A stretch of DNA of 64,000 nucleotides, taken from contig JBDIWC010000006.1 in the NCBI GenBank assembly GCA_039794085.1, positions 14,262 through 78,261 on the forward strand, read 5' to 3'. The position numbers and the translations under genes are program-made. The DNA is from Gemmatimonadales bacterium. GTDB lineage: Bacteria > Gemmatimonadota > Gemmatimonadetes > Gemmatimonadales > GWC2-71-9. Below the pieces are notes generated by a model. The model was given only the letters and a program-made list of their open reading frames with translations, ran no database searches and was not told where the DNA came from. Positions 3,133 through 55,190 of the stretch are shown here, in pieces. Position 1 is the first letter of the stretch; each line of letters opens with the position of its first letter.

Positions 3133-3202
3133 TCCTTGCCATCGTTCGGCGATGGACGATACGTTCATTCACCTGTCCGGTTCTCCTTTTTTGGAGCCAC
3201 GC

Positions 3203-4864: not shown

Positions 4865-4910
4865 ACCCGAGTCCGCATCGGCCGTCGACCTCTCCGCGCG
4901 GCCCCCGGAA

Positions 4911-5669: not shown

Positions 5670-5712
5670 AGGCGGGAGGCGAGTGTCACTTCATTATTGG
5701 CCGGATCAAAGA

Positions 5713-6120: not shown

Positions 6121-6130
6121 CGCGAGACTC

Positions 6131-6439: not shown

Positions 6440-6612
6440 GACGCGCCTCCCGTGTAGCGTATATGGCTACATTAACGCTACACGGTTGACCCATGGAGCG
6501 CAACCCCTCGCGCCGATGCCACTTGTCCGGTCGGCGTCGCGGGAGGACCCCGGGAACGGGGCTTTCGCGCTATGTATTGGCAGGTCGCTGTGTCGACCGT
6601 ATGGTTCGCCGG

Positions 6613-6840
6613 ATGAGAACGACGCTGACGATCGATGAGACGGTGATGGCCCGGCTTCGCCGCGAGGCCGCGCGAACCGGTCGAACCATGTCCACCGTGG
6701 TGGAGATGGCTCTGCGCCAGGTGCTTCAAGACAAGCCCGCTGCGGTGGCACTTCCCGAACTTCCGAGCTTTGACAGCGGAGGAGCCCTGGTGGATCTGGC
6801 CGATCGCGAGGCACTCCATCAGGCTATGGCGGGCCCGTGA
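6613..6840 (+). CDS. VapB-family (PF09957-like) antitoxin with no adjacent toxin
   Basis: MRTTLTIDETVMARLRREAARTGRTMSTVVEMALRQVL. Stop TGA 6838-6840 overlaps GTG 6837 of the next ORF (rlpA-like), not a toxin gene. Confidence 0.7.
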   Translation: MRTTLTIDETVMARLRREAARTGRTMSTVVEMALRQVLQDKPAAVALPELPSFDSGGALVDLADREALHQAMAGP

Positions 6841-7499
6841 CGAGGGCGGAGTGTACGCGACAAGCCGTGGACCGGGCCGAGATCAGGTGGAGAGTGATCG
6901 GTCTCCTCCTGACGCTGGGTCTGGGCGGGTGTGCCAGCATGGGACGCGGACGGTCTCCCGATCTCCCCGCACCCGTGACGGACGGCTGGGTCGAAGAGGG
7001 AGTCGCCTCCTGGTACGGGGAACCCTTCCATGGGCGCCGCACCGCCTCCGGTGAAGTCTACGACATGCACGCACCCACCGCGGCGCACCGGACTCTCCCC
7101 TTCGGCACCCGGGTGCGGGTCGAGAATCTGTCCAACGGCCGCTCCACCACGCTGCGTATCACCGACCGAGGCCCGTTCGCAAAGAACCGGATCCTGGACG
7201 TGTCCCGGTGGGGTGCCGAGGAGCTTCGTCTCATCGGACCCGGGGTGGCGCGGGTCAGGATCACGGTGCTCGATGCCCCGGCCTCCCCACGGTGTTGGGA
7301 GATCCAGGCGGGGGCTTTCGCCGATAGCGCGAACGCCGACCGCCTCCGTGTCCGACTCCTCGATGATCAGTTCCCGACACGGATCGACACCGGGCCCGGC
7401 GGTCTCCATCGGGTGCGAGTGGGGCCGTTCGAAGACCGAGGTGTAGCGGAGAGTGCCGCGCGGAGGGTGGACGGTCTCCTGCTGGGGTGCGGCGCGTAG
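6837..7499 (+). CDS. rlpA: Septal ring lytic transglycosylase RlpA-family lipoprotein (DPBB + SPOR domains)
   Basis: Lipobox LTLGLGGC. ASWYGEPFHGRRTASGEVYDM...LRITDRGPF (DPBB). C-terminal WEIQAGAFADSANADRL...HRVRVGPF (SPOR). True start may be downstream of 6837. Confidence 0.8.
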   Translation: MTRAECTRQAVDRAEIRWRVIGLLLTLGLGGCASMGRGRSPDLPAPVTDGWVEEGVASWYGEPFHGRRTASGEVYDMHAPTAAHRTLPFGTRVRVENLSNGRSTTLRITDRGPFAKNRILDVSRWGAEELRLIGPGVARVRITVLDAPASPRCWEIQAGAFADSANADRLRVRLLDDQFPTRIDTGPGGLHRVRVGPFEDRGVAESAARRVDGLLLGCGA

Positions 7500-32114: not shown

Positions 32115-32196
32115 GCGAACGTGGCGAAACTGGCAGACGCGCAGGACTTAGGATCCTGTGGGGAAACCCATCCGGGTTCGACTCCCGGCGTTCGCA
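32115..32196 (+). tRNA. tRNA-Leu (anticodon UAG)
   Basis: Hand-folded cloverleaf: acceptor GCGAACG/CGTTCGC, D-arm GCG-AAACTGGCAGA-CGC, anticodon stem CAGGA/TCCTG with loop CTTAGGA, long variable arm TGGGGAAACCCAT, T-arm CCGGG-TTCGACT-CCCGG, discriminator A. CCA not encoded. Confidence 0.9.
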
Positions 32197-42626: not shown

Positions 42627-43318
42627 GACTTTCCGTTCCCTCATCCGTGCTGCCGGTGTCTCCCTCGGGGGGCACCGGCAGTACCGTCGGGGTCCCGGAC
42701 CTGCGGCATGCACGAGCTGCCCTGTGGGCCCTGTTTCTGATGGCGGGCTGCCACTCGGCTCCGCAGGCGAGGCTGGAGGAGGAGGCACTGGCAGCCGAAG
42801 CCACCCCCACGACCACTCGGATCGTGGACAGCATCCTTCCTCTCGAGGAGGAGATTCGGCGGTTCACCAACACCTCGCCCCCTCTTCTTCACTTGTCCAA
42901 TGGAGCCCCCAGCCGAGAGGAGCTCGTGGAGCAGTGGGTGGCCGCCATTGAAACGCGGGACTCGGCGGCCCTGGGCCGGCTGCACGTCACTCCGGGCGAA
43001 TTCATCGGTCTCTATTATCCGAACTCCGTCTACACCTCACCCCCCTATCGGCAGAGTCCCTCTCTGGTCTGGTTCCGCATGGTCAACTCGTCGAGTCGGG
43101 GTTCCACGAGAGTGATGCAGCGCCATGGGGGTCACCCCTTCCCTCTCCGCGGACTCCGGTGCGAGGAAGCCCCGATGCCCCGCGGCCCCATCCGGGTCTG
43201 GTCCCCCTGCCTGGTTCAACGAGAAGGGGATTCCACGGCGCCGGACCAGCGCCTCTTTGGTCCGATCCTCGAGCACGAGGGCCGATTCAAGTTCCTGACC
43301 TACGACTCGGAGTACTGA
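42623..43318 (+). CDS. Hypothetical lipoprotein
   Basis: Lipobox ALFLMAGC. Start uncertain (TTG 42623 overlapping the upstream stop, or GTG 42647). No recognisable domain. Confidence 0.55.
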   Translation: MRLSVPSSVLPVSPSGGTGSTVGVPDLRHARAALWALFLMAGCHSAPQARLEEEALAAEATPTTTRIVDSILPLEEEIRRFTNTSPPLLHLSNGAPSREELVEQWVAAIETRDSAALGRLHVTPGEFIGLYYPNSVYTSPPYRQSPSLVWFRMVNSSSRGSTRVMQRHGGHPFPLRGLRCEEAPMPRGPIRVWSPCLVQREGDSTAPDQRLFGPILEHEGRFKFLTYDSEY

Positions 43319-44010
43319 GCAGGAACGGAGGACGCCCTCCCCTCGGAACCCTCCTTGCGCACGACCCAAGTGGTCATGCTCCGCAGCTGGTCGACGAGAG
43401 TGGTCTTGAGGGGGTCGAGGAGACACCCCCCGAGAGCGGCAGTCGTGTCGTGCAGGAAGGGTGCGTCGACCAGAAAGCGAGTGGATCCATCCGGGAGGCG
43501 AAACCAGCGACCTCCCAGCGGATCGAGCTGGTCCTGCATCCCGATCGTCGAAGCCAGTCGGCAGAACAGCATCCCTCCCGGCCGCAGGACCCGCCAGAGC
43601 TCCCGGACCGCGCGGTGGAAGGCGTCCTCGTCCGGGGAGAAGTGCAGGAGCGCGTTCGCGATCACGACGTCGAACCTGTCAGCTGGAAACGGGATTGCCT
43701 CGATGGAGGCGAGTTGGAAGTTGTCGGGGGACAGGGATGGCGCGTGCCTTGCCGCCAGGGCCCGAACCACCCGCACGGATTCCTCCGATGTGTCCACGCC
43801 CCAGGCGACGTATCCCGCTCTCAGGAAGTATTCCAGGTTGCGCCCCGTGCCCATCCCCGCGTCGAGCAGGCTCATGCCCGGCGTGATCCGCCCCCGCAGC
43901 AGCTGGTCGAGGAGGTAGATGTCGACGCCCCCCAGGGTGGAGAGCCATCCCCCTGGATCGGGATGGACCGGATTTCCCCCCGACGCGGGGGCGCTATCCC
44001 TTCCTGGCAT
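43300..44010 (-). CDS. Class I SAM-dependent methyltransferase
   Basis: LLDAGMGTGRNLEYFL (motif I), ...FDVVIANALLHF..., LRPGGMLF. Start overlaps the 3' end of the upstream MscS gene by 17 nt. Confidence 0.85.
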   Translation of the reverse strand: MPGRDSAPASGGNPVHPDPGGWLSTLGGVDIYLLDQLLRGRITPGMSLLDAGMGTGRNLEYFLRAGYVAWGVDTSEESVRVVRALAARHAPSLSPDNFQLASIEAIPFPADRFDVVIANALLHFSPDEDAFHRAVRELWRVLRPGGMLFCRLASTIGMQDQLDPLGGRWFRLPDGSTRFLVDAPFLHDTTAALGGCLLDPLKTTLVDQLRSMTTWVVRKEGSEGRASSVPAQYSES

Positions 44011-44911
44011 GCGAGTCCGCCTGATGTCCGGTGACCGGAGGAACCCCGACGAGTTCGACCGTCGTGGACCCGAGCTGCACCCGACCCGCCGTGTTATCGA
44101 TCGCGTTCAGCACGGCCTCGTACAACTGATCCTTAGTCCCGCGGCGACTGCGGTAGTCGACGGGGTACCGGATCGTGTAGGACAACCAATTGTCGGTGGC
44201 CACCAGAGTCACGAAGGGGATCAGCCGCGCCGGTTCAATCCGATACCGCATGACCAACTCGGCCCAGGCGCCCGCAGCCGACTCAGCATAGGCCCCCGTC
44301 ACCGCACTCGCCGTCTCCTCCAGGATACTCCTGGCAAGCACACGATCCGAACGATAGCTGATGGGCAGAACAATCTCGTCCCAGAGAAAGGGAAAATCCG
44401 CGCTGTAGTTGAAGACAGGCTCCTTGAACACGAAGCTGTTGGCGACCCGCACGATCCGCCCGTTGTACAGATCGCCATCGACCCAATCCCCGCACTCCAT
44501 GAGCGTGGTGCGAAGGATTCCAATGTCGATGACGTCCCCCCGGATGCCCCCGAGCCGGACGCGATCCCCCACGCGGAAGAAACCACCCGCCAGCACGGCC
44601 ACCCACCCCGCCACACTCGCAATCACCTCTTGCAGGGCAAAGGCCACACCAGCCCCGGCCACCCCAAATGCGACGGTCAGTCCTCCCAATCGATCACTGA
44701 GCCCCTCGGCGATGTAGATGGCTGCCACCGTATACCCAAGAAGGATCACGAGCTTTCTGGTTCGATATCGTCCGTCCACGTCCTGGATTCGCGGGGTCAG
44801 GCGGCGAGTGACCACCCACACGGCGGCGTAGATGACAACCAGGCCGATCAGGATGCGCAGCAGTCGCAGGCTCAGCGGATTGGTCAGCCAGGGGGGCAAC
44901 CCATCAAGCAT
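43994..44911 (-). CDS. Small MscS-family mechanosensitive channel homologue
   Basis: 305 aa. 3 TM, then FRVGDRVRLGGIRGDVIDIGILRTTLME...RIVRVANSFV (MscS beta-domain signature). Confidence 0.85.
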   Translation of the reverse strand: MLDGLPPWLTNPLSLRLLRILIGLVVIYAAVWVVTRRLTPRIQDVDGRYRTRKLVILLGYTVAAIYIAEGLSDRLGGLTVAFGVAGAGVAFALQEVIASVAGWVAVLAGGFFRVGDRVRLGGIRGDVIDIGILRTTLMECGDWVDGDLYNGRIVRVANSFVFKEPVFNYSADFPFLWDEIVLPISYRSDRVLARSILEETASAVTGAYAESAAGAWAELVMRYRIEPARLIPFVTLVATDNWLSYTIRYPVDYRSRRGTKDQLYEAVLNAIDNTAGRVQLGSTTVELVGVPPVTGHQADSHARKG

Positions 44912-44920
44912 CAGGAAACC

Positions 44921-47900
44921 TCATGCCATTCCCCGCGGCAGGAGGTTTGCCGCCTGAATCCGATCCAGAACGACGTGACGCATCACGGAGCGAACCCGAT
45001 AGGCCACTCCCGGGACCACGCGGACCCCGGCCTCGGCACGGAGAGTGTCGGTTGCATCCTCGGCCAGGTGGGGCTCCAGCAGGCGCAAGGCCAGAAGATG
45101 TTCCAGTGCCTGCCGGGCTCGCTCCTCGCTGAGGCGGAAGATGGCCGCGTGCTCGGCCACCGTCAGCGTCGCGTGCATGAGCAGCGCCCGGAGGGTCATC
45201 GTACTCACCAGGGGGAGGGAGTCGAGAAAGCGATAGTCGAGCCGGTCGATCGGCCGGAGCGTCACTCGGCCCCCCGGCTGCCCCTCTCCGCCTCCTTCCT
45301 CAAACCTGGCGGAGCGGAGCCAATACAGAAGGGCCTGCCCGATGTCCCCTTCGGTGGCCCGGGCCATCCGATCGATGTAGAGCGAGCGCAGAAGACGATC
45401 ACGGGCCTCCGCCGTTCGCACCCGGGCCAGTCTCTGCCGCAGAAGGAACCCCGGGAGGTCGGGAGGAAGCACCTGAAGCGCGAGTCCGCTCCATTCATGG
45501 CGTGTCAGGAGGGCTTGTTCCAATTCTCTCCGGCCCAGGGGATCGAGGTGAATGTGGCGAAACGCACGCAACGCCTCGGCGAGTTCGGCACGCACCACCG
45601 GCCCCGCCACACCATTGATCGACAGGATCCAGTGCACCCTGCTGTCGGAACGGGTACAGAACCCCAGGAACGCCTCCATCAGCCATGCCCCCTCCGGCAC
45701 GTGGAGAAAAAGGTACTCGATATCGTCCACGATCACGACGCCACCACTTCGCGGTTCGTCCGAGAGAAGAGCCCTTTCAAGATCCGCGAGCGTGGAGGCA
45801 CCCGAGTGACCGAGGACCGCGCCGAGAGCTTCCGCGAGGACCGCCTCCGAGGACATCCGCGTGGACAGGGTCATCCACCGGACGGGGACACTCTCGATCT
45901 CCTCGGACACAACCGAGAGGAAGCTGGTTCGTCCCCCGCCGGGAAGCGCCTCGACGAGGACAGATCCGGCGGGGTGACCCCGGCCCCACCGGCTGATGTG
46001 ATCTCCGACCAGTTCCAGCGGCGCATCCCTCCCGGCGAGAAGTTGCCGTCGTTCGAGGGGGCCCTCCCCGAAGAGGCGGCGGTACACCATGGGGAAGGTG
46101 GCCCGGTGTGCGGCCACCTCCTCCAGCGAATCGACGGTGGACAGCCATTGCGCCTCGGTGGGCCGGGCCACACCGACCGCCGCCTGTCCCCGCGAGAGCA
46201 ACTGGCGGACTCGGGCGACGACCGCCACCATCCGTGGCTGCAGATCGTCCCATGCATGCCGAGCGGCATGCCGCCCGAGGTACCATCGACGCTGAATGGC
46301 CCGCACGGCTGACGCCCCGAGGCCCTGCCAGGATCGTTGGTTGGCCGCGGCCCGGTTCACGCGTCGCTGGAAGTCGGTCCAATCCTCATGGAGGGCCTCC
46401 CAGACAGACCGGGCGAGATCCCCCCAAGCCGGCTGCAGACCCTCCACCGCGCGGGTCATGGTGTCGGTGGCTCGGGCCAGGCCGTCGCAGGCCACCGTGA
46501 GGGCACGGGTCGAGGGGCCTTCCTCTCCTTCACCGGGGGAGTCGTCGGGACCCTCCCGGAGAGCCTCCCGAGCCGCATCCAGCGCATACTCGACGATGTG
46601 AGGCACCTGGTGGACCATCGCCCAGGCCTTGATGACCCGCTCCCGGTACCGGGGAACGGCACGACCCAATACCACCGGGAGGGGGGGCTGGAAGGCTTCG
46701 CGGGCGGCATCCCGGGGGCTCCAGGGCACCGGCAGCGCCGCGGGATCGATGTCCCCGGATCCCGCCGCGAGGGTCGTGGGAAGGACTTCGTCAGGGAGCT
46801 GGGCGATCAGCGCCTCGATCTGCCGAGCTTCGCGAGACCCCAGATGATCGAGGGCCTTTTCCGCCCGGCTGACACCGGCCAGATCAATCAGCCGTTCGGT
46901 TTCCTCCGCCTGAGCCGCTGCCTGCGCGAGTGCCTGTTTCAGTACTCCCTCCGCCTCCGGGTCTGGTTCGGACAATCGGCTCCGCACGTTCCGGAGTTCG
47001 TCTGCCAGCCGATCCACCACCTCCGCCAGGGGTTGGAGGGTCTGGCCCCGCAGCCGGGTGAGCAACTGGTTCTCGAGTTCAGTGATTTCACGCCGAAAGC
47101 GCACTCGGGCCATCAGGGCCCGGAGTTCCCTCTCCCCGCGGGTGGCCCACTGATCCCATTCCCGACCCCGGATCTCCAGGCGGTCGCCCCAGACAGGGGG
47201 CCGGTCACCGGGACGCCAGGCGCGAGGAAGGAGGGGTGTACCGGCCAGGAGCAGCGACCGACGGAAGATCTCCGCGGCGTCCGTGGTGGACAGGGCCGGC
47301 GGGGGCGCCACGGCAGCCAGATCTTGCAGGGTCCGATGGAACTGCGCGATCGCCTCCCGTGTCTCCGCCGACTCCATGTCGGGAATCACCCGGTCCTCCT
47401 CCGCCCCGGGAGTGCCCTCGGGAAGATGGAGGCCAGGCGTGTCGTGGGCCTGGTCGAGGAGGAGAACCGCCTCCATCAGGGTGGTGGCCGCACGCACCAT
47501 CTGAACCCAGGGCCGTCCCCACAGCACCTGCATCTCTTCGTGACGCAAAAAGTGCCGGGCGCCGAGCCGCTCGTCGACATGCGCGTGCCAGTAGCCTCGG
47601 ATGTCGACATCCCGCTGGCACTCACCCTCCGGCGTCCGCCCCCACAGGCCTCGCAGGGCGTTGGCCATGGTGCCCAGCCGACGGCGGATCCGGACTCCCC
47701 GCTTGAGCCACCGTACTCTCGGGGGGTCATCGGGGAGCGGGTCGTAAAACTCCGGGGGATCACAGGCCGCCAGAACCGCGGAGTGCACGGAGGCCGCTTC
47801 CCGGAGCGACCGACGGAGGTCCCGCAGGGAGGTCCGGATCCGGTCGGCCGGCCGAGTGTGCTCCATGACCTCACGCAGCGGGTCCAGGGTCCCGTCGATC

Positions 47901-48142
47901 ACCGCGTCACGATAGGCCACGACGCCACGCCAGGTCATCGGGCCGGACTCGAGGAGGATCCGGCTCGCCGTCTCATGAGCCATGGTGGCCGATCGTGCGG
48001 CCGTGGCCAGGGCCTGAATGACCCGGGTCTCCAGCATCGCCTCCCACTCCGCCGTTTCCCGGTCGGCCCGGTCGAGGAGGGCATCTCCGAGTGCGCCGAC
48101 CTCGTCGTCCGACAGGAGCGTGGTCTCGGAGTCCGTTGTCAT
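44921..48142 (-). CDS. 1,073-aa hypothetical protein: ~700-aa helical N-terminal region + ORC/AAA_16-like NTPase module with degenerate Walker A + C-terminal wHTH-like region
   Basis: LAGRDAPLELVGDHISRWGRG...VLVEALPGGGRTSFL (Walker A with R for K), GGVVIVDDIEYL (Walker B), HIHLDPLGRRELEQAL, C-terminal LTVAEHAAIFRLSEERARQALEHLLALRLLE. ATGA overlap with the upstream MscS gene. Confidence 0.75.
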   Translation of the reverse strand: MTTDSETTLLSDDEVGALGDALLDRADRETAEWEAMLETRVIQALATAARSATMAHETASRILLESGPMTWRGVVAYRDAVIDGTLDPLREVMEHTRPADRIRTSLRDLRRSLREAASVHSAVLAACDPPEFYDPLPDDPPRVRWLKRGVRIRRRLGTMANALRGLWGRTPEGECQRDVDIRGYWHAHVDERLGARHFLRHEEMQVLWGRPWVQMVRAATTLMEAVLLLDQAHDTPGLHLPEGTPGAEEDRVIPDMESAETREAIAQFHRTLQDLAAVAPPPALSTTDAAEIFRRSLLLAGTPLLPRAWRPGDRPPVWGDRLEIRGREWDQWATRGERELRALMARVRFRREITELENQLLTRLRGQTLQPLAEVVDRLADELRNVRSRLSEPDPEAEGVLKQALAQAAAQAEETERLIDLAGVSRAEKALDHLGSREARQIEALIAQLPDEVLPTTLAAGSGDIDPAALPVPWSPRDAAREAFQPPLPVVLGRAVPRYRERVIKAWAMVHQVPHIVEYALDAAREALREGPDDSPGEGEEGPSTRALTVACDGLARATDTMTRAVEGLQPAWGDLARSVWEALHEDWTDFQRRVNRAAANQRSWQGLGASAVRAIQRRWYLGRHAARHAWDDLQPRMVAVVARVRQLLSRGQAAVGVARPTEAQWLSTVDSLEEVAAHRATFPMVYRRLFGEGPLERRQLLAGRDAPLELVGDHISRWGRGHPAGSVLVEALPGGGRTSFLSVVSEEIESVPVRWMTLSTRMSSEAVLAEALGAVLGHSGASTLADLERALLSDEPRSGGVVIVDDIEYLFLHVPEGAWLMEAFLGFCTRSDSRVHWILSINGVAGPVVRAELAEALRAFRHIHLDPLGRRELEQALLTRHEWSGLALQVLPPDLPGFLLRQRLARVRTAEARDRLLRSLYIDRMARATEGDIGQALLYWLRSARFEEGGGEGQPGGRVTLRPIDRLDYRFLDSLPLVSTMTLRALLMHATLTVAEHAAIFRLSEERARQALEHLLALRLLEPHLAEDATDTLRAEAGVRVVPGVAYRVRSVMRHVVLDRIQAANLLPRGMA

Positions 48143-49344
48143 GGGCTCACCGGAGGGTTCGCCGGGGATGGTGTCACCAGGCGGACAGGAAATCCCACGG
48201 GAATCATCCCGCGGCGCAGGTATTCCATCTTGGCGGTTTCGGTGACGTCGCTGGCGAAGACGAACTCATGCCGGGTGTCGATCACGTAGGCCTTGACGCG
48301 AATCACCGTGAGGAACACCTCCCGAAACTCATCCTTGACCAGCACCACGATGGGCTTGTCGAGGTGAGTGTACTTCGACATGGCGGCCGCACTGTGGGCG
48401 ATCTCGCGCGCCTCCCGGGGATCGACCCACCCCGGCAGGTACAGGTCCACCACCACCTGACAGTCGAGCGCCCCGGTGTTGGCATTGGCCACATGTGCCT
48501 CGACCACGGCGCCATTCGGCACGGAGACCAGGCTGTCATCCGGGGTCTGGAGCCGGGTGGCCCGCAGACCGATGCTCATCACCTCACCGTAGGTTTCTCC
48601 GACACGGACCTTGTCCCCGACCTGGAACGGCTGGTCAAAGATGATGATGAGCCCCCCCAGGAAATCCTTCAGTACCCCCTGGGAGGCGAAACCGACACCC
48701 ACTCCCACGGCGGCCCCCACCGCCAGGAGTCCGCTCTGATCCAGGTCGTACACCACGGCCACGATCAGCCAGGTGGCGAAGGTGTAGATCACGAGCCGGG
48801 CCACCGGCAGGAACCGCATGTAGTACAGGCGGCGCTTGGCGCTCCGTTCCGCGAGCCCGGTCAGCAACCAGCTGAGGAGACGGATCAGGATCCAGGCCAG
48901 CCCGAGGACCACCACGGCCCAGATGGTTCTCATCCCGTAACGGCGTACCCCGGCAATCGCTTCGGATGCACTGGGCGCCCCGGTGCCGGTGTCCGCCGCA
49001 ACTTCGGCGAGTGCCTGCTGTGCACGGGCCGCGACAGACTCGGACAACAGCACGACCGTCGTCCCCAGGCGACTGATCTCCTGACGGAGACTGTCCAGGG
49101 TGCTGCGAGGTACCACCACCGTGTCGGATGACGCGGTCAGAGTGTCGGGGGGCGTGGACGTGGTGTCGGAAGGCGGGCGTTGCGTGGACGAATCCTGCTC
49201 ACCGAGCCCGGACCCCGCCCCCGGGTCGGGAGAGGTGACGGCGACGGTGTCCCCCCCGAGAGCGGGAGGGGTGCTCTCGGAGCCGCGGCAGGCGGGTGTC
49301 CCCACCACGAACAGACAGACCGACACCAACCGGATCAGGGACAT
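48139..49344 (-). CDS. MscS-family mechanosensitive channel homologue with long secreted/lipoprotein-like N-terminal extension
   Basis: 401 aa. N-terminal VCLFVVGTPAC, S/T/P-rich linker, TM helices, FDQPFQVGDKVRVGETYGEVMSIGLRATRLQTPDDSLVSVPNG (MscS core). Confidence 0.85.
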   Translation of the reverse strand: MSLIRLVSVCLFVVGTPACRGSESTPPALGGDTVAVTSPDPGAGSGLGEQDSSTQRPPSDTTSTPPDTLTASSDTVVVPRSTLDSLRQEISRLGTTVVLLSESVAARAQQALAEVAADTGTGAPSASEAIAGVRRYGMRTIWAVVVLGLAWILIRLLSWLLTGLAERSAKRRLYYMRFLPVARLVIYTFATWLIVAVVYDLDQSGLLAVGAAVGVGVGFASQGVLKDFLGGLIIIFDQPFQVGDKVRVGETYGEVMSIGLRATRLQTPDDSLVSVPNGAVVEAHVANANTGALDCQVVVDLYLPGWVDPREAREIAHSAAAMSKYTHLDKPIVVLVKDEFREVFLTVIRVKAYVIDTRHEFVFASDVTETAKMEYLRRGMIPVGFPVRLVTPSPANPPVSP

Positions 49345-49418: not shown

Positions 49419-50171
49419 TCAGGGTCGAACCGGGAATCCCCTCTCGCGGAGGTGCGCACGGGCCTCGGGCAGGGAGCTACCCTGGTCGTGGAAGATGGTC
49501 GCCGCCAGAACGGCGTGGGCCCCGGCCGTCAACGCTTCGGCGAGATGCTCGAGGGTTCCCGCCCCTCCGGACGCCACCACCGGGATGCGCACCGTCTGAG
49601 CGGCACGCGCGAGCAGTTCGAGATCATACCCCCGCCCCGTTCCGTCCCGGTCCATCGACGTCAACAGGATCTCGCCAGCGCCCCGGGCCTCGGCCTCCCG
49701 AATCCAGTCGAGGCCGTCGCGGTGGGTCGGCTCCTTCCCGCCGCGAACCATCACCTGGTAGACCTCGCCATTCCATCGAACGTCCACCGCGACGACGATG
49801 CACTGACTCCCGAAGGCACGTGACAGCCGGGTGACGAGATCCGGGTCCCGCACGGCGGCGCTGTTGACCGCGATCTTGTCCGCTCCGGCGCGGAGTGTCC
49901 GGGCCGCATCCTTCTCGGAGCGGATCCCTCCGCCCACCGTGAAGGGAATGAAGATCGAGTCGGCCACGCGCGAGACGACATCGAGGGTCGTGGCCCGGTC
50001 CTCATCGGTGGCGGAGATATCCAGCAGGACGAGTTCGTCCGCCCCGTCCCGGTCGTAGCGCGTCGCCTGGGTCACGGGGTCACCGGCGTCGCGGAGTGAT
50101 GTGAAGTGCACACCCTTGACCACCCGTCCTCCGGCCACATCGAGACAGGGAATGATCCGCCGGGCTAGCAC
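49419..50171 (-). CDS. hisF: Imidazole glycerol phosphate synthase cyclase subunit HisF
   Basis: MLARRIIPCLDVAGGRVVKGVHF...DELVLLDI...GGGIRS...ADKIAVNSAA. Confidence 0.97.
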   Translation of the reverse strand: MLARRIIPCLDVAGGRVVKGVHFTSLRDAGDPVTQATRYDRDGADELVLLDISATDEDRATTLDVVSRVADSIFIPFTVGGGIRSEKDAARTLRAGADKIAVNSAAVRDPDLVTRLSRAFGSQCIVVAVDVRWNGEVYQVMVRGGKEPTHRDGLDWIREAEARGAGEILLTSMDRDGTGRGYDLELLARAAQTVRIPVVASGGAGTLEHLAEALTAGAHAVLAATIFHDQGSSLPEARAHLRERGFPVRP

Positions 50172-50638
50172 AGGCGAAGCACGTCTTCGAGGGGCCCGGC
50201 ATCGCCCCCTTGCAGCAGGACAAGAAGGTCGTCGAGGGCCCGTCGTTCGCGGGGCCAGCTGAACCGGGCCCGCGCCTCTCCCGGAGCCAGCCAGACATGA
50301 TCATCGTGCTCCGCCCCGAGAGAGACCTCGCTCCCCGGGGCCACCATCGCGGCGAAGGCGGGGATGATCGCCACGGCGTTGTCCCGGTGCAGAAAGAACG
50401 ATTCACACCGGCTCAGGTTGTACCACGCCATCGGCTCGAGTCCGGTCTCCTCCCGCAGTTCCCTCCGTGCGGTGTCCACCGGGTTCTCCCCCGGCTCCAC
50501 ATGTCCATGCACCGACTCCCAGGCCCCGGGGCATCGGCCCGTCGGCGCCCGGCGGAGCACGAGGCATTCGAGGTCATCCCCCCCCCTGCCGCGGCGCACG
50601 ACGTAGACATCCACATACACGATGCGCAGGGAGGTCAC
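50165..50638 (-). CDS. Nudix hydrolase embedded in the his operon
   Basis: GTG 50638 overlaps the hisH stop (GTGA). Stop overlaps the hisF start by 7 nt. Nudix box GHVEPGENPVDTARRELREETGL. Confidence 0.8.
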   Translation of the reverse strand: MTSLRIVYVDVYVVRRGRGGDDLECLVLRRAPTGRCPGAWESVHGHVEPGENPVDTARRELREETGLEPMAWYNLSRCESFFLHRDNAVAIIPAFAAMVAPGSEVSLGAEHDDHVWLAPGEARARFSWPRERRALDDLLVLLQGGDAGPLEDVLRLC

Positions 50639-51255
50639 GGCGCCCACCGTGTGAAGGCGCGCAGCAGCTCCACGCCCGCCTGCTGCGACTTCTCGGGATG
50701 GAACTGGGCGCCGAGAACGTTCTCCGATCCGATGATCGTCGGAAACGGATCCTCGTACTCCGCGACGGCGAGCACGGAGGGTTCCGGAACATCCGCGGGG
50801 TGGTAGCTGTGAACGTGGTAGTAGAACTGAGGCCCGTCCCGCAGCAGAGCCCCGACCACGGGATGGGCACCCGCGGCGGGGGTCCCGGTTACCTCCGCCC
50901 ACCCGACGTGGGGGACGGGCAGGGTGGTCCGGAATCGGATCACTCGGCCCGGCAGCAGGCCCAACCCCGGAAGGCCCGGGGCCTCTTCACTGCTGGCGCA
51001 GCAGACCTGGAGGCCCAGACAGATGCCGAGCACGGGGCGGCCGACTTCGGCGACGGAGCGGATCGCGTCGCCGAGCCCGGTCCGGGTGAGGGTACGCATG
51101 GCGGAGTCGAAATGCCCCACTCCGGGCACCACGACGCGATCGGCCCGGGCCACGGTCGCGGGGTCACTGGTCAGGGTCCCTTCCGCGCCGGCCGCCTCCA
51201 GGGCGCGCACCACGGAGCGGAGGTTGTTCACGCCGTAATCCACCACGGCGATCAC
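50635..51255 (-). CDS. hisH: Imidazole glycerol phosphate synthase glutamine amidotransferase subunit HisH
   Basis: MIAVVDYGVNNLRSV...VVPGVGHF...PVLGICLGLQ (Cys nucleophile)...FHPEKS. Confidence 0.96.
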   Translation of the reverse strand: MIAVVDYGVNNLRSVVRALEAAGAEGTLTSDPATVARADRVVVPGVGHFDSAMRTLTRTGLGDAIRSVAEVGRPVLGICLGLQVCCASSEEAPGLPGLGLLPGRVIRFRTTLPVPHVGWAEVTGTPAAGAHPVVGALLRDGPQFYYHVHSYHPADVPEPSVLAVAEYEDPFPTIIGSENVLGAQFHPEKSQQAGVELLRAFTRWAP

Positions 51256-51845
51256 AGGACACCCTTCGTGGAGGGAATGCCCACGACACGCGGATCACGA
51301 CTCGTGGCGTGGTCGAGAGCTCGCGCAAAGGCCTTGACGGTCGCTTCCACGATGTGGTGCGGATTGTCCCCTCGGAGCAGATCGAGATGCACCGTGAGAC
51401 CGGCGTGGGTCACCAGGGCGCGGAAGAACTCGGGCGTGAGGAACACATCGTAGTCCCCGAGCATCTGCCACTTGGGAATCTCGATCTGGTAGGCCAGGTA
51501 GGGCCGACCGGAGACGTCAACGACGGCGCGCACCAGCGCATCGTCGAGGGGAACGGTGGCTTCGCCGTACCGCCGGATGCCGGCCCGATCTCCCAGCGCC
51601 TCGGCGAGAGCCTGTCCGAGGACGATCCCGGTGTCCTCCACGGTGTGGTGTCCGTCCACGTGGAGGTCACCGGCCCCTTCGACGGTGAGGTCGAAGAGTC
51701 CGTGCCGGGCAAACGCCTCGAGCATGTGATCGAAGAACCCGATCCCCGTGCCACACGCGCACTGGCCGGTTCCGTCGAGTGCGAGGCGCACGCGCAGGGT
51801 GGTCTCCCGGGTGTCCCGGCGCCGATCCCCCACACGCGCCGTCAT
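51252..51845 (-). CDS. hisB: Imidazoleglycerol-phosphate dehydratase HisB
   Basis: Start MTARVGDRRRDTRETTLRV... GIGFFDHMLEAFARHG...GDLHVDGHHTVEDTGI...NPHHIVEA. ATGA overlap with the hisC stop. Confidence 0.95.
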   Translation of the reverse strand: MTARVGDRRRDTRETTLRVRLALDGTGQCACGTGIGFFDHMLEAFARHGLFDLTVEGAGDLHVDGHHTVEDTGIVLGQALAEALGDRAGIRRYGEATVPLDDALVRAVVDVSGRPYLAYQIEIPKWQMLGDYDVFLTPEFFRALVTHAGLTVHLDLLRGDNPHHIVEATVKAFARALDHATSRDPRVVGIPSTKGVL

Positions 51846-52939
51846 GGGAGGATGACCCGGAGGGCCGCACAGGTTCGTTCCATGTCCTCCTCCGTTCCGA
51901 TCGTGATCCGAAGACACTCCGCAAGACCCTCGCCCTGGCTCACATCGCGCACCAGGATTCCGAACTCCGCCAGGAGGCGGGCGAACACCGTCGCGGCCGG
52001 TACCCGGTCACACCGAATCAACAGAAAGTTGGCTTCTCCCGGGTAGACGTGCAGCCCGGGAAGGCGGCGGAGCTCGTCCCGAATACGCTCCCGGCGTTCC
52101 ACGAGTTCCGCCACCCGGGCGTGGATGGTGGTCTGGTGATCCAGAAGAGTCAGCGCCACATCCAGGGTGAACCGGTTGACGTTGTAGGGGAGCTTCGCCT
52201 TGTGCATCTCGGAGGCCAGCGCGGGATGGGCCAGGGCGTATCCGAACCGGAGTCCGGCCAGACCGAACGCCTTGCTGAATGTTCGCACGACCACCACCCG
52301 GGCCGACTCCCGGAGCAGGGGGACCATGGTGTCGCCCCCAAACTCCTGATAGGCCTCGTCGACGAGGATGAGGGCCTCGGTCTCGGCCAGGAGGCGTTCC
52401 ACCAGGGGGCGCGGGCAGATCGTGCCGGTGGGGTTGTTGGGCGTGCAGACCACCACCACCCGCGCGTCGTGCGCCGCCCGGAGCAGCGGTGCCGCTTCCC
52501 AGGCAAACTCCGCTCCCAGGGACACCCCGTGCCACCGGGCCCCGGCCACCCCGGCCAGCAGCCGGTACAGGCTGAAAGTGGGGCTCGGGGTCACGACCCG
52601 ATCACCGGACCGGAGGGTGACCGCGAAGGTGGCCTGGATCAGCTCGTTCGAGCCATTCCCCACCAGCACCCCCTCGGGAACCCACTCGTGCCTCTCGGCC
52701 AGGCGGGCCGTCAACTCGGCGGGGACGAACGCGGGATACCGGTTCCAGGGGGCGGACACAATCCGGTCGGCCAGGGTGCGCTTCCACGGGTCCGGCAGGT
52801 CAAAGGGGCTCTCGTTCTGATTCAGCTTGATGGGCGCGTCGGGTGCGTTCAGCGTGTAGCCCTGGAGACTCCGCACCTCGGGCGTGACCAGCGCGAGGAC
52901 AGCATCGGCTCCGGGGAGCCGGGACGGAGGGGAGGTCAT
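51842..52939 (-). CDS. hisC: Histidinol-phosphate aminotransferase HisC
   Basis: Start MTSPPSRLPG... KLNQNESPFDLP, TPNNPTG, SKAFGLAGLRFGY (PLP lysine). Starts 1 nt after the stop of the upstream GspE-REC gene. Confidence 0.9.
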   Translation of the reverse strand: MTSPPSRLPGADAVLALVTPEVRSLQGYTLNAPDAPIKLNQNESPFDLPDPWKRTLADRIVSAPWNRYPAFVPAELTARLAERHEWVPEGVLVGNGSNELIQATFAVTLRSGDRVVTPSPTFSLYRLLAGVAGARWHGVSLGAEFAWEAAPLLRAAHDARVVVVCTPNNPTGTICPRPLVERLLAETEALILVDEAYQEFGGDTMVPLLRESARVVVVRTFSKAFGLAGLRFGYALAHPALASEMHKAKLPYNVNRFTLDVALTLLDHQTTIHARVAELVERRERIRDELRRLPGLHVYPGEANFLLIRCDRVPAATVFARLLAEFGILVRDVSQGEGLAECLRITIGTEEDMERTCAALRVILP

Positions 52940-52940
52940 G

Positions 52941-55190
52941 TCACGCGGGGCGACGGCCATCGAGCAGCGCGTCGATCCGCGCCGCCAGGGCCCGGGCCCG
53001 GAACGGCTTGGTGAGGAAGTCCGCCGCCCCGAGTTCCAGGACCCGGACCTCGTTGTCCTCGTCACCCTTGGCCGTCAGAACAACCACCGGCACCCCCCGC
53101 ATGGCGGGACGGGAACGGATCTGGGCCAGCACCTCGTAGCCGTCGATCCCCGGCAGGTTCAGGTCGAGGATGATCACATCGGGGGCGTGCCGGTCGACCA
53201 TGTCGAGCGCCTCGACGCCGTCCGCCGCTTCCAGAACCTGATAGCCCGCCCGCTCCATCAGATCCCGCATCGCCCGCCGGAGGTGTTCTTCGTCATCCAC
53301 CAGGAGCAACCGGGCCTTGGTGCTTTTCGACGAGCCGTCTCCGGGTTCCGACGCCATCTCATCCACCAGGTCGAAATCAGGGAGGACGGCCTCGGAATCC
53401 TGGCGCACCCCCGGGAAGGTCGGAGCTCCGCCGGGCGGCGGAGGGGCGACGGAGGCCACGGGCGGTTCGGGAGCGGCCTGGGGAACCGGCACCGAGGCGA
53501 AGGCCTTGCGGGGAGGGTCGGTGACCCGCATCACTTCGTCGATCGAGGTCAGGCCCAGCAGGGCCCGGTCGATGGCGCTCTCGAACAGGGACCGCATGCC
53601 GTTCACCCGGGCGGCCTGCGCGATGGTGTCGGCGGTGGCCCCACTCCCGATGAGCCGTTCCAGTTCGGGACTCATGGTGAGAATTTCCACCACCCCGAGC
53701 CGGCCTCGATACCCGGTCTGGGTGCACTCGGGACAGCCCACCGCCCGATAGAGTGTGGCCCCGTCGGGGATCCATTCCGCCACCCGTGCCGGCGGGGGAT
53801 CGGTGGTCACCTCACGACACACCGGACAGAGTCGCCGCACCAGGCGCTGAGCCACCACGCCGCGAAGGGCGGAGGCGATCTTGTACCCCTCCATCCCCAT
53901 GTCGGTGAGACGGGTGACACTGTTGGGGGCGTCGTTCGTGTGCAGGGTGGACAGGACCAGGTGGCCGGTGAGCGACGCCTGAATCGCGATTTGCGCGGTC
54001 TCGCCGTCCCGGATCTCGCCCACGAGCACCACGTCCGGATCCTGGCGGAGAATGGATCGCAGGGCCGTGGCGAAGGTCAATCCGGCGCGCTCGTTGGTCT
54101 GCACCTGCACGATGTTCGCGCCGAGCCGGTACTCGACCGGGTCCTCGACGGTGACGATGTTGACACCCTCACTCTGAATGGCCCGCAGGGTGGCGTACAG
54201 CGTGGTGGTCTTCCCCGATCCCGTGGGACCGGTCACCAGAATGATCCCTTCCTTGTTCCGGAGGAGCCCCTCCAGCGCCTCCCGCTCCGAGGCCATGAGG
54301 CCCAGGGCATCGAGGCTCAGAACCGTCGACTTCGTATTGAGGACCCGGATGACGATCTTCTCCCCGTGCGTCGCCGGGAGCGTGGAGACCCGCAGGTCCA
54401 CCTGGTCCTTGTTGACGAGCATCCGGGTCCGGCCGTCCTGAGGCCGAAGACGGTCGGAGATGTCCATCCCCGAGACGATCTTGATCCTCGACACCAGCGG
54501 AATCCCCGCGGACCGGGGGATTCTCATGACCTGCCGCAGCACACCGTCGATCCGGTAACGCACCACCAGACCGCCCTCGACGGGCTCGATGTGGATGTCA
54601 CTCGCCCGGCTGGCGATCCCGTCCGCCAGGAGGGTGTCCACCAGCTTGATGATCGGACGCTTGGCCGCCTCCGCCGCGGCGAAGGAGACCTCATCCTCGG
54701 TCGTCTCCGTGATCTGAGACACCTCGGCTTCGTCGACCATCCCGCCGAGCAGCTTGGCCACGACGTCTTCGGGCCGGTACACCTCGTCGAGCTGTTCCCG
54801 GATCTTCGCGGGAGAGGCCAGAAGCATCCGGACTTCGAGACCGGTGGCAAACGACAGCATCTTGTCGGCGTCCATATCGAACGGATTCGAGGTCGCCACT
54901 TCGATGAAGGAGTCGGTGATCCGGAGGGGAAGCGCCTGGTACCGGCGGGCCAGGTTCTCGGGGACCGATTGCACCGCGGCCCGATCCGCCTCGCGCACGT
55001 TGGCGAGCTGCAGCCGGAACCGGGCAGCCACCGCCTCCAGAATCTGGTCGTCGGTCAGCCGGCGACGCTGCGTGACCGTCTCCCACACCGAGTCGGGGCG
55101 CTCCTGATCCATGCGCAGCCGATCCACTTCCCCCGGCTCCAGCAAGGGAGCCAGGGTGGGAACCAGCCACTCGTCCTGAAATTCAGCCAT
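52941..55190 (-). CDS. Type II/IV secretion-family ATPase (GspE/PilB-like) fused to a C-terminal response-regulator receiver domain
   Basis: T2SSE_N-like N-terminus. Walker A VTGPTGSGKTTT, Walker B-like GVNIVTVEDPVE, tetracysteine CPVC...CPEC. After a P-rich linker, LLLVDDEEHL...VIILDLNLPGIDG...VVVLTAKG...FLTKPF (REC). Confidence 0.85.
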   Translation of the reverse strand: MAEFQDEWLVPTLAPLLEPGEVDRLRMDQERPDSVWETVTQRRRLTDDQILEAVAARFRLQLANVREADRAAVQSVPENLARRYQALPLRITDSFIEVATSNPFDMDADKMLSFATGLEVRMLLASPAKIREQLDEVYRPEDVVAKLLGGMVDEAEVSQITETTEDEVSFAAAEAAKRPIIKLVDTLLADGIASRASDIHIEPVEGGLVVRYRIDGVLRQVMRIPRSAGIPLVSRIKIVSGMDISDRLRPQDGRTRMLVNKDQVDLRVSTLPATHGEKIVIRVLNTKSTVLSLDALGLMASEREALEGLLRNKEGIILVTGPTGSGKTTTLYATLRAIQSEGVNIVTVEDPVEYRLGANIVQVQTNERAGLTFATALRSILRQDPDVVLVGEIRDGETAQIAIQASLTGHLVLSTLHTNDAPNSVTRLTDMGMEGYKIASALRGVVAQRLVRRLCPVCREVTTDPPPARVAEWIPDGATLYRAVGCPECTQTGYRGRLGVVEILTMSPELERLIGSGATADTIAQAARVNGMRSLFESAIDRALLGLTSIDEVMRVTDPPRKAFASVPVPQAAPEPPVASVAPPPPGGAPTFPGVRQDSEAVLPDFDLVDEMASEPGDGSSKSTKARLLLVDDEEHLRRAMRDLMERAGYQVLEAADGVEALDMVDRHAPDVIILDLNLPGIDGYEVLAQIRSRPAMRGVPVVVLTAKGDEDNEVRVLELGAADFLTKPFRARALAARIDALLDGRRPA

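What the first reader, a model, noticed from the sequence alone, without database searches (positions are those of the whole stretch)
44921..46075. NTPase module of the 1,073-aa protein has arginine in place of the Walker A lysine
The P-loop reads LPGGGRTSF (R codon CGA at 45929-45931, minus strand) where GxxGxGK[ST] is expected. The Walker B-like VVIVDDIEY, the HIHLDPLGRRELEQAL segment and a C-terminal wHTH-like helix-turn (LTVAEHAAIFRLSEERARQALEHLL) are all retained. A K-to-R P-loop usually weakens hydrolysis while preserving nucleotide binding. That suggests a nucleotide-sensing switch or scaffold rather than a motor. The N-terminal ~690 residues (46076-48142) show no motif I can recognise.
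Basis: partly seen in the sequence, partly recalled or inferred. Interest (0 to 1): 0.55.

Follow-up and report, generated by a model that had tools for sequence, protein, structure and literature searches.

The report
Lysine-less AAA+ partner of MscS channel
The arginine in the ATP-binding loop is real and is a trait of a whole protein family: a large, unnamed family of Orc1/Cdc6-like AAA+ proteins that has mostly lost the catalytic lysine and is almost always encoded next to one particular MscS-type mechanosensitive channel, which suggests a non-motor partner of that channel.

Summary
ORF 44921-48142(-) encodes 1,073 aa, and R738 (CGA, 45929-45931) is the first residue of the helix after the P-loop, where the Walker A lysine belongs.

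It is not a strain mutation or a sequencing error:
- All five orthologues (66-95% identity) have R.
- Across 157 family sequences that position reads R 76, L 19, V 15, H 15, K 9, A 7 and others, while the flanking G-x-G and T-S are 85-98% conserved.

A high-confidence model of residues 668-1073 (pLDDT 95.5) matches archaeal and eukaryotic Orc1/Cdc6/ORC structures: an AAA+ base, a lid and a winged helix. The N-terminal ~680 aa are helical, match no known family and are under purifying selection.

The main new result is the genomic context. The gene starts 4 nt inside the stop codon of an MscS-like channel gene. That pairing holds in 35 of 37 related genome loci, and in all 69 metagenome loci found through the channel that have enough sequence to show the neighbouring gene.

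Best reading: a non-hydrolysing AAA+-like cytoplasmic partner or regulator of an MscS-family channel. The partnership and the mechanism are inferred, not shown. No literature on this pairing was found.

The parts
48139..49344 (-). MscS-like channel gene (401 aa), the conserved partner. It has an N-terminal signal or lipoprotein-like hydrophobic segment, three hydrophobic segments and the MscS beta-domain. Its stop codon overlaps the start of the 1,073-aa ORF by 4 nt (ATGA).
   Evidence: PF00924 E 9e-21. NCBIfam MscS/MscK/MscM core hits. Hydrophobic segments. 52% identical to the partner gene in L001 and 42% to the one in L004. Adjacent in 35 of 37 genome loci and 69 of 69 informative metagenome loci.
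44921..48142 (-). The 1,073-aa cytoplasmic protein: an N-terminal helical region plus a C-terminal AAA+ / lid / winged-helix module.
   Evidence: ORF and translation. No hydrophobic 19-mer. dN/dS 0.18 against the orthologue in L002. Member of a family with 1,016 cluster representatives at E<=1e-30.
46103..48142 (-). N-terminal ~680 residues: predicted all-helical, no known family, with scattered motifs conserved across the family.
   Evidence: No Pfam, NCBIfam or PADLOC hit. All-helical but low-confidence model. Only weak, composition-type PDB matches. dN/dS 0.20. Absent from short stand-alone forms in 8 metagenome loci.
46070..46096 (-). FPMVYRRLF, the most conserved motif of the family (consensus LPLVYRRLF). 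It lies just N-terminal of the AAA+ core and is followed by the L-x-G-R-[DE] motif.
   Evidence: P684, Y687, L690 and F691 are 99-100% conserved; R705 is 99% conserved. The G-R-[DE] ... P-G-x-G segment aligns with Cdc6.
45545..46045 (-). AAA+ alpha/beta base (residues ~700-866), strands beta1 to beta5.
   Evidence: Model with pLDDT 95.5. Foldseek top hits are Orc1/Cdc6/ORC. Pfam AAA_22 in 17 of 34 relatives and AAA_16 in 16 of 34.
45923..45949 (-). Degenerate Walker A loop A-L-P-G-G-G-R-T-S (residues 732-740). R738 (45929-45931, CGA) replaces the Lys.
45713..45739 (-). Walker B region VVIVDDIEY (residues 802-810). D806 is at the end of beta3. Position 807 varies across the family. E809 is 97% conserved in the MscS-first clade.
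45248..45544 (-). Helical lid (residues ~867-965). It includes the 100%-conserved R881-H882 and W941. In the G-[QG]-N-[IVL]-x-L-A-L motif, the sensor-2 Arg of the Cdc6 'GDAR' motif is replaced by a hydrophobic residue.
   Evidence: The match to GDAR is my own motif alignment from memory, not a structural superposition.
44948..45247 (-). C-terminal winged helix (residues ~966-1065) with H990 conserved at 99%.
43994..44911 (-). Second, more divergent MscS-like gene (305 aa), 9 nt downstream. It occurs only in the closest relatives, so it is a clade-specific addition and not part of the core pair.
   Evidence: PF00924 E 3e-10. Present downstream in L002, L003 and L005 only.
43300..44010 (-). Class I SAM-dependent methyltransferase gene that overlaps the end of the second MscS gene by 17 nt. 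Probably in the same transcription unit; not conserved with the pair outside close relatives.

Best explanation
The 1,073-aa protein belongs to a large, unnamed bacterial family. Its C-terminal ~400 residues form an Orc1/Cdc6-like AAA+ module (base, lid, winged helix) whose ATPase site has decayed.

Shown:
- The Walker A lysine position is free to vary across the family. It is Arg here and in about half of the relatives, and L, V, H, A, M or I in many others.
- The residue after the Walker B acid is not conserved.
- The glycines and Thr-Ser of the P-loop, and the Walker B acid, are kept.
- The gene is almost always next to the gene of one particular MscS-type channel subfamily, on the same strand, and usually overlaps it by 4 nt.

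Inferred:
- The module does not work as an ATP-driven motor. At most it holds a nucleotide or another phosphate ligand statically. In many relatives it probably binds none.
- The protein is made together with the channel and is its dedicated cytoplasmic partner, either tuning its gating or relaying its state.
- The AAA+ / winged-helix module is the part that matters for the channel, because short relatives consist of that module alone. The N-terminal helical region would then be an accessory input or scaffold domain.
For: - Fold: the model of residues 668-1073 has pLDDT 95.5 and pTM 0.92. Foldseek PDB top hits are Orc1/Cdc6 (2qby_A, E 2e-9; 2v1u), Cdc6, ORC1/4, 1fnn, 1w5t and 2qen. The nucleotide-free Sir3 AAA+-like domain 3te6 is also among the hits.
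- Sequence: the PDB profile search gives Cdc6 as the best AAA+ hit. Of 34 relatives, 17 hit Pfam AAA_22 and 16 hit AAA_16. Three hit TIGR02928 orc1/cdc6.
- Degenerate site: counts at the Lys position are R 76, L 19, V 15, H 15, K 9, A 7, M 5, I 5. Entropy there is 2.50 bits, against 0.10-0.70 at G735, G737, T739 and S740. Position 807 is N, H, D or G.
- Not a composition effect: Lys is also lost in low-GC, Lys-rich members. A PilB-type ATPase in the same window keeps GSGKTT.
- Under selection: dN/dS is 0.18 and the CGA codon is identical in an 84%-identical orthologue.
- Channel pairing, forward direction: 4-nt ATGA overlap in the window. Found in 35 of 37 genome loci that have upstream DNA, mostly with the same 4-nt overlap. 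Five of five Myxococcota relatives have an MscS-like gene directly downstream.
- Channel pairing, reverse direction: starting from the channel, 69 of 80 metagenome loci have the AAA+ gene adjacent, and the other 11 contigs end at the junction.
- Gene order flips between clades but adjacency is kept.
- Stand-alone AAA+ / winged-helix forms sit next to the channel in 8 loci.
- Precedent for cytoplasmic partners of MscS-type proteins: FtsZ with MscS and PII with PamA (PMC4440785).
Against: - No physical interaction was tested. Adjacency and coupling show co-expression and co-inheritance, not a complex.
- The conserved P-loop glycines, T739/S740, the acidic residue at 806, and the near-invariant R762, E809, R881-H882 and H990 show that the pocket region is still under strong selection. 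That could mean a ligand is still bound, or even turned over in an unusual way.
- Arg at the Walker A position can still support nucleotide binding in engineered K-to-R mutants (general knowledge). This particular protein may therefore bind nucleotide even if relatives with Leu or Val do not.
- I could not inspect model coordinates or dock a nucleotide.
- The function of the N-terminal 680 aa is unknown. Its model is unreliable.
Confidence: 0.55

Rival explanations
1. It is still a working nucleotide switch or slow NTPase. Arg738 contacts the phosphates in place of Lys, and other near-invariant residues (R762 after beta2, E809 two residues after Walker B, H990 in the winged helix, which recalls the MHD His of STAND proteins) complete a non-canonical site. 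Nucleotide state would then control the channel partner.
For: G735, G737, T739, S740 and the acidic residue at 806 are strongly conserved. R762, E809, R881-H882 and H990 are 97-100% conserved. About half of the MscS-first clade has Arg. About half of the sister clade with reversed gene order keeps a canonical GSGK[ST]T, so the ancestor probably bound nucleotide.
Against: In many relatives the same position is L, V, I, M, A, H, T or S, with no sign that the rest of the protein changes. Position 807 varies, and no Arg is conserved between beta4 and beta5 or at the sensor-2 position. The roles proposed for R762, E809 and H990 are guesses made without coordinates.
Confidence: 0.2
2. The pair is a conflict or anti-phage module. 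A fast-evolving STAND/AAA+-like sensor would trigger an MscS-derived pore as a membrane-depolarising effector (abortive infection).
For: The AAA+ protein diverges much faster (23-30% identity) than the channel (41-65%) across the same loci. This is the pattern of a variable sensor with a conserved effector. It is a two-gene module whose neighbours vary. A few relatives give sporadic weak hits to Avs2, PtuA and TRIP13 models.
Against: PADLOC gives no hit for the window proteins and no consistent hit among 34 relatives. In the window and its orthologous loci the pair sits between the his operon and housekeeping genes, in conserved synteny, with no mobile-element or defence genes nearby. Known STAND defence sensors need an intact P-loop (general knowledge), whereas here it is degenerate.
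Confidence: 0.12
3. It is a DNA-binding regulator of the Orc1/Cdc6 or LAL type. Its winged helix binds DNA, and its activity is controlled by the membrane channel, giving tension-responsive transcription control.
For: A C-terminal winged helix lies in the position of the DNA-binding domain of Orc1/Cdc6. The wing consensus R-Y-R-I-R-P is basic.
Against: The third helix of the winged helix, the usual recognition helix, is acidic or hydrophobic in the consensus (LESLxNxxLIE) rather than basic. No conserved target or divergent promoter architecture was seen. In many AAA+ and STAND proteins the winged helix packs on the ATPase domain instead of binding DNA (general knowledge).
Confidence: 0.08
4. 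The Arg is a strain-specific mutation, a sequencing error, or a by-product of the Lys-poor composition of a 67% GC genome.
For: The protein has only 4 Lys against 133 Arg.
Against: All orthologues have R. An 84%-identical orthologue has the identical CGA codon, and dN/dS is 0.18. Lys is lost family-wide, including in members from loci with 33-40% GC and 8-10% Lys content. A PilB-type ATPase in the same window keeps GSGKTT.
Confidence: 0.01

Closest known systems
Archaeal Orc1/Cdc6 and eukaryotic Cdc6/ORC subunits (PDB 2qby, 2v1u, 1fnn, 1w5t, 7jgr_G, 8s0e_G)
   Same: Same three-part architecture of AAA+ base, helical lid and C-terminal winged helix. These are the best structural matches and the best AAA+ sequence-profile matches, including the L-x-G-R-[DE] ... 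P-G-x-G segment.
   Different: The Walker A Lys is missing, and position 807 after the Walker B acid is not conserved. By motif alignment, the sensor-2 Arg is missing too. The family is bacterial. It carries a ~680-aa N-terminal helical extension. It is encoded with an MscS channel rather than at a replication origin. Sequence identity to these structures is only 11-16%.
Pfam AAA_16 (PF13191) and AAA_22 (PF13401), the STAND/LAL-type and ORC/TniB-type P-loop domains
   Same: About half of the relatives score on these models, with best E-values of 2e-8 and 1e-9. P0006 and P0007 carry a precomputed AAA_16 hit.
   Different: The window protein itself gives no hit even at E<=1. There are no C-terminal TPR, WD40 or LuxR-type modules as in typical AAA_16 proteins. 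The P-loop Lys is not conserved.
Naturally degenerate AAA+ modules used as scaffolds: the Sir3 AAA+-like domain (PDB 3te6), Orc2/Orc3, clamp-loader delta and delta-prime
   Same: An AAA+ fold is kept while the nucleotide-binding or hydrolysis residues are lost, and the module serves protein-protein assembly (general knowledge). Sir3 3te6 is among the structural hits (rank 47). The non-ATPase delta and delta-prime subunits are described in PMC1636414 (abstract listed).
   Different: Those are subunits of DNA- or chromatin-associated assemblies. Here the conserved partner is a membrane channel. The P-loop glycines and Thr-Ser are still strongly conserved, unlike in Sir3.
MscS-family channels with regulatory inputs: MscK/MscM and bCNG channels with fused extra domains, PamA binding PII, MscS binding FtsZ
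   Same: An MscS core combined with an extra regulatory or protein-binding element on the cytoplasmic side (PMC4440785; remainder from general knowledge).
   Different: Here the extra element is a separate, probably translationally coupled AAA+-like protein of ~1,100 aa. I found no description of an MscS / AAA+ pair.
STAND-type anti-phage sensors (Avs) with membrane effectors
   Same: A large NTPase with a variable non-catalytic region, encoded with a membrane protein.
   Different: No PADLOC family match. The P-loop is degenerate. The genomic context is housekeeping and syntenic. The extension is N-terminal and helical, not a C-terminal repeat sensor.

Membership tests
AAA+ / P-loop NTPase fold (ASCE division) | Alpha/beta core with a glycine-rich loop between beta1 and alpha1, and an acidic residue at the end of beta3 | tested here: met
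   Model with pLDDT 95.5: beta1 727-732, loop 733-737, alpha1 from 738, beta3 801-806 ending in D806. 678 PDB matches at E<=0.001, and the top 50 are all AAA+ proteins.
AAA+ / P-loop NTPase fold (ASCE division) | Walker A GxxGxGK[ST] with the invariant Lys | tested here: not met
   The sequence is P-G-G-G-R-T-S. R738 is in the Lys position. Only 9 of 157 family sequences have Lys there.
AAA+ / P-loop NTPase fold (ASCE division) | Walker B hhhhD[DE] with a catalytic acid after the Asp | tested here: inconclusive
   The window has VVIVDD. Family-wide, position 806 is D or E (77 each) but position 807 is N, H, D or G. A different Glu, E809, is 97% conserved.
AAA+ / P-loop NTPase fold (ASCE division) | Sensor 1, Arg finger and sensor-2 Arg | tested here: inconclusive
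   The end of beta4 (position 843) is polar in 104 of 157 sequences. No Arg is conserved between beta4 and beta5 (position 852 is K or R in ~60%). The position that aligns by motif with the Arg of Cdc6 'GDAR' is I, V or L. This was not checked by structural superposition.
Orc1/Cdc6 replication initiators (TIGR02928) | AAA+ base + lid + C-terminal winged helix | tested here: met
Orc1/Cdc6 replication initiators (TIGR02928) | Scores above the family's curated cut-off, with canonical ATP-site motifs | tested here: not met
   The window protein gives no NCBIfam hit. Only 3 of 34 relatives hit TIGR02928, weakly (best E 2e-4). The Walker A Lys is absent. It resembles this family in shape but is not a member.
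Pfam AAA_16 / AAA_22 | hmmscan score at or above the gathering threshold | tested here: not met
   The window protein gives no hit at E<=1. Relatives: 17 of 34 hit AAA_22 and 16 of 34 hit AAA_16 at E<=0.01. The relationship is therefore indirect, through homologues.
STAND NTPases (NB-ARC / NACHT / MalT type) | NBD-HD-WHD followed by a C-terminal repeat sensor (TPR, WD40, LRR), with a conserved His in the WHD contacting ADP | tested here: inconclusive
   There is no C-terminal repeat region, because the protein ends with the winged helix. A 99%-conserved His (H990) exists in the winged helix, but its contact with the pocket could not be examined. Top structural hits are ORC/Cdc6, not STAND proteins.
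Known anti-phage defence systems (PADLOC-DB 2.0) | A match to any defence-protein model | tested here: not met
   Zero hits for the three window proteins. Only scattered weak hits among 34 relatives.
MscS channel family (for the two neighbouring genes) | MS_channel beta-domain (PF00924) preceded by transmembrane helices | tested here: met
   PF00924 at E 9e-21 (401 aa) and 3e-10 (305 aa). Hydrophobic segments. Channel activity itself cannot be tested with these tools.

The most novel reading that the evidence does not exclude
The AAA+-like protein assembles as a ring or cap on the cytoplasmic cage of its heptameric MscS-type partner. This would make the channel partner-gated or signal-gated, or turn it into a tension-to-cytoplasm signal transducer. 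That would be a previously undescribed class of two-component mechanosensitive channel, widespread in Gemmatimonadota, Rhodothermales, Myxococcota and uncultured lineages. Its former ATP site would be reused as a structural or ligand-sensing site.
Probability: 0.25. Interest if true: 0.8.

Novelty: new variant of a known kind. Interest (0 to 1): 0.6.

Why it matters
Bacterial MscS-type channels are generally treated as self-sufficient tension sensors. A dedicated AAA+-derived cytoplasmic protein that is co-inherted and probably co-translated with one channel subfamily would change that picture. It is conserved across at least three phyla and in more than 1,000 sequence clusters. It would imply that this subfamily is regulated by, or signals through, a partner protein.

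The family is also a clear natural example of an AAA+ site decaying at one specific residue while the rest of the loop stays conserved. That makes it useful for asking what a P-loop does once it no longer needs its lysine.

Both questions can be tested directly with standard assays: co-purification, nucleotide binding, patch clamp and downshock survival.

Tried and rejected
- Pfam, NCBIfam and PADLOC scans of the window protein gave nothing.
- Word-index homology searches found only 6, 2 and 8 relatives. The exhaustive profile search was needed to reveal the family.
- The full-length structure model, built from an 8-sequence alignment, was poor (pLDDT 52). I did not use its N-terminal part.
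- PDB profile hits to the N-terminal region (designed helical bundles, apolipophorin III, 14-3-3, coronavirus spike heptad regions) are helical-composition matches. I rejected them as homology.
- The first attempt at search for related loci failed because the alignment was too diverse.
- A search for a third conserved neighbour gene found only spurious overlapping-frame ORFs and lineage-specific neighbours.
- Rfam found no regulatory RNA near the operon.
- Five literature searches for an MscS / AAA+ or MscS / STAND pairing were either swamped by unrelated 'MSCs' papers or found nothing.
- The composition-driven K-to-R explanation and the sequencing-error explanation were considered and rejected.
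I could not measure pocket geometry, dock a nucleotide, or test the proposed roles of R762, E809 and H990.
Full report
**1. The observation**

The minus-strand ORF 44921-48142 encodes a 1,073-aa protein.
- LPGGGRTSF is residues 733-741, and R738 is codon CGA at 45929-45931.
- VVIVDDIEY is residues 802-810.
- HIHLDPLGRRELEQAL is residues 863-878.
- The helix-turn-helix string is residues 993-1017.

The protein has no hydrophobic segment long enough to span a membrane. It contains only 4 Lys against 133 Arg.

**2. Is it a P-loop NTPase fold?**

Yes. A full-length model from a shallow alignment was poor (pLDDT 52). A model of residues 668-1073 built from a 60-sequence family alignment is very confident (pLDDT 95.5, pTM 0.92). 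Its elements are:
- beta1 at 727-732, the glycine loop at 733-737, and helix alpha1 starting exactly at R738;
- beta3 at 801-806, ending in D806;
- beta4 at 836-843 and beta5 at 861-866;
- then a helical lid and a C-terminal winged helix.

Foldseek against the PDB puts archaeal Orc1/Cdc6 first (2qby_A, E 2e-9; 2v1u). Next come Cdc6, ORC1 and ORC4 from human, yeast and fly, then 1fnn, 1w5t, the archaeal Walker-type ATPase 2qen, RuvB and RFC. The nucleotide-free Sir3 AAA+-like domain 3te6 is also in the list.

Sequence profiles agree. Cdc6 is the best AAA+ match in the PDB, aligned through L-x-G-R-[DE] ... P-G-x-G. Of 34 relatives, 17 hit Pfam AAA_22 and 16 hit AAA_16. Three hit the orc1/cdc6 NCBIfam model.

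**3. Is the Arg a private oddity?**

No. It is a family trait, and the trait is wider than K-to-R.

The five orthologues at 66-95% identity all have G-x-G-R-T-S. An 84%-identical orthologue uses the same CGA codon. The gene is under purifying selection: dN/dS is 0.18 overall, 0.20 for the N-terminal part and 0.155 for the C-terminal part.

An exhaustive profile search found 2,816 cluster representatives at E<=1e-3 and 1,016 at E<=1e-30. Most of the top 150 are full-length proteins of about 1,000-1,150 aa. I aligned 157 sequences: these 150, the window protein, and the relatives found earlier. The Walker A Lys position reads R 76, L 19, V 15, H 15, K 9, A 7, M 5, I 5, Q 2, and F, C, T once each.

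That column has an entropy of 2.50 bits. Its neighbours G735, G737, T739 and S740 have 0.52, 0.10, 0.70 and 0.49 bits. The position that is invariant in working P-loop NTPases is thus the one free position in this loop.

The position after the Walker B acid (807) is also variable (N, H, D or G). By motif alignment I see no conserved Arg between beta4 and beta5, and none at the sensor-2 position, where the consensus is G-[QG]-N-[IVL]-x-L-A-L against GDAR in Cdc6. That last comparison is my own motif alignment and has not been checked by superposition.

Base composition does not explain the loss. Lys is also replaced by M, A, T, S or I in relatives from loci with 33-40% GC whose proteins contain 8-10% Lys. 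A PilB-type ATPase in this same window keeps GPTGSGKTT.

**4. The surroundings: a conserved pair with an MscS channel**

The gene's ATG overlaps, by 4 nt (ATGA), the stop codon of a 401-aa gene at 48139-49344. That gene is an MscS-family channel (PF00924, E 9e-21). Nine nucleotides downstream lies a second, more divergent MscS-like gene (43994-44911). A methyltransferase gene follows.

The first pairing is conserved far beyond close relatives:
- The 30%-identical P0006 has a 52%-identical MscS gene upstream with the same 4-nt overlap.
- The more distant P0007 has a 42%-identical MscS gene directly downstream.
- In 50 genome loci from Gemmatimonadota, Rhodothermales/Salinivenus/Bacteroidota and Myxococcota MAGs, 35 of the 37 MscS-first loci that include upstream DNA have this MscS subfamily immediately upstream on the same strand. 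Most have the ATGA/GTGA overlap. L009 and L011 are the exceptions.
- All five Myxococcota relatives have an MscS-like gene directly downstream.

I then ran the test in reverse, starting from the channel core. This gave 80 metagenome loci at 41-65% identity. The AAA+ gene was adjacent on the same strand in 69 of them: downstream of the channel in 16 and upstream in 53. In the other 11 the contig ends at the junction, so no informative locus lacks the pair.

Three further points:
- Gene order differs between clades, but adjacency is kept.
- In eight loci the partner is a short protein of 390-475 aa made of the AAA+ / winged-helix module alone. That module, not the N-terminal region, is therefore the constant companion of the channel.
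- No third gene is consistently linked.

**5. History of the ATP site**

In the clade with reversed gene order, about half the members keep a canonical G-E-K-G-S-G-K-[ST]-T. The rest have M, I, R, A, T, L or S. The Myxococcota relatives keep the Lys but often lose the following Thr/Ser (G-V-G-K-[GAR]-A). In the window's clade the Lys is almost entirely gone.

The simplest reading is that the ancestor bound nucleotide and that constraint on the catalytic residues has been relaxed repeatedly.

**6. Most likely mechanism**

Shown:
- an Orc1/Cdc6-like AAA+ / lid / winged-helix module;
- a hypervariable Walker A Lys position;
- an obligate, same-strand, usually overlapping pairing with one MscS subfamily;
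- purifying selection on the whole protein.

Inferred: the protein is not an ATP-driven motor. It is a pseudo-ATPase, or at most a static ligand binder, that serves as the cytoplasmic partner of the channel. It would either tune gating or relay the channel's state.

Degenerate AAA+ modules that act as assembly scaffolds are well known, for example Sir3, Orc2/3 and clamp-loader delta and delta-prime (general knowledge; 3te6 is; the non-ATPase delta and delta-prime subunits are in PMC1636414). Cytoplasmic partners of MscS-type proteins also have precedent: FtsZ with MscS and PII with PamA (PMC4440785).

I put this reading at about 0.55.

**7. Rival readings**

- A still-functional non-canonical nucleotide switch, about 0.2. 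The strong conservation of the P-loop glycines and T-S, the acid at 806, and R762, E809, R881-H882 and H990 keeps this alive.
- A conflict or anti-phage module with a fast-evolving sensor and a conserved pore effector, about 0.12. In favour: the AAA+ protein diverges much faster than the channel. Against: no PADLOC support, a housekeeping syntenic context next to the his operon, and the degenerate P-loop.
- A DNA-binding regulator, about 0.08.
- Sequencing error or a composition artefact. This is refuted.

**8. Comparison with known families, and novelty**

In shape the module works like Orc1/Cdc6 and is related to the AAA_16 and AAA_22 families. It fails the defining Walker A test and scores below threshold on every curated model. 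I therefore do not file it as a member of any named family.

One distant family member (the cluster of P0007, not the window protein) is named in a public database, and only as 'hypothetical protein'. My searches found no paper on an MscS / AAA+ pairing, but those searches are limited and cannot prove absence.

I rate it as a new variant of a known kind: a degenerate AAA+ module in a new, conserved partnership with a mechanosensitive channel.

**9. Verdict**

The Arg itself is only one state of a family-wide relaxed position. The feature most worth following up is the obligate pairing with an MscS channel. Interest 0.6.

Noticed in passing
L086, L089, L108, L110, L124, L128, L130, L133 (for example L108:3460-4656): Short stand-alone relatives (390-475 aa) consist only of the AAA+ / winged-helix module and sit directly upstream of the MscS partner gene. 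Unrelated or divergently oriented genes lie on their other side.
   Followed up: partly
L050-L054 (Myxococcota MAGs), family ORFs about 2400-7000: Distant relatives of ~1,500 aa keep the Walker A Lys but often lack the following Thr/Ser (GVGKAA, GVGKGA, GVGKRA). An MscS-like gene lies directly downstream. This is a different way of degrading the same site.
   Followed up: partly
window 43994-44911 (-) and 43300-44010 (-): A second, divergent MscS-like gene (305 aa) lies 9 nt after the 1,073-aa ORF. A SAM-dependent methyltransferase gene overlaps its end by 17 nt. Both are present only in the closest relatives (L002, L003; the MscS copy also in L005).
   Followed up: partly
window 52941-55190 (-): A 749-aa PilB/GspE-type (T2SSE) ATPase with an MshEN-like N-terminus and a C-terminal response-regulator receiver domain. 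It keeps a canonical GPTGSGKTT P-loop, and I used it as an internal control for Lys retention in this genome. The domain names come from the orthologous gene in L002.
   Followed up: no
window 49419-53065 (-): A histidine biosynthesis cluster (hisC-, hisB-, hisH- and hisF-like genes) lies directly upstream of the MscS gene, with a NUDIX hydrolase gene inserted between the hisH-like and hisF-like genes. The arrangement is the same in L002 and L003. Only 74 nt separate the hisF-like gene from the MscS gene, so the channel pair may be co-transcribed with the his genes.
   Followed up: no
window 44921-48142 (-): Extreme Lys depletion: 4 Lys against 133 Arg in 1,073 residues. Type A (MscS-first) family members average 1-2% Lys; relatives from low-GC loci reach 8-10%.
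   Followed up: partly
L009 and L011: These are the only two family loci with upstream DNA that have no MscS gene within 6 kb. They may represent secondary loss or relocation of the channel gene.
   Followed up: partly
window 32115-32196 (+): A single tRNA gene, the only Rfam match in the window.
   Followed up: no
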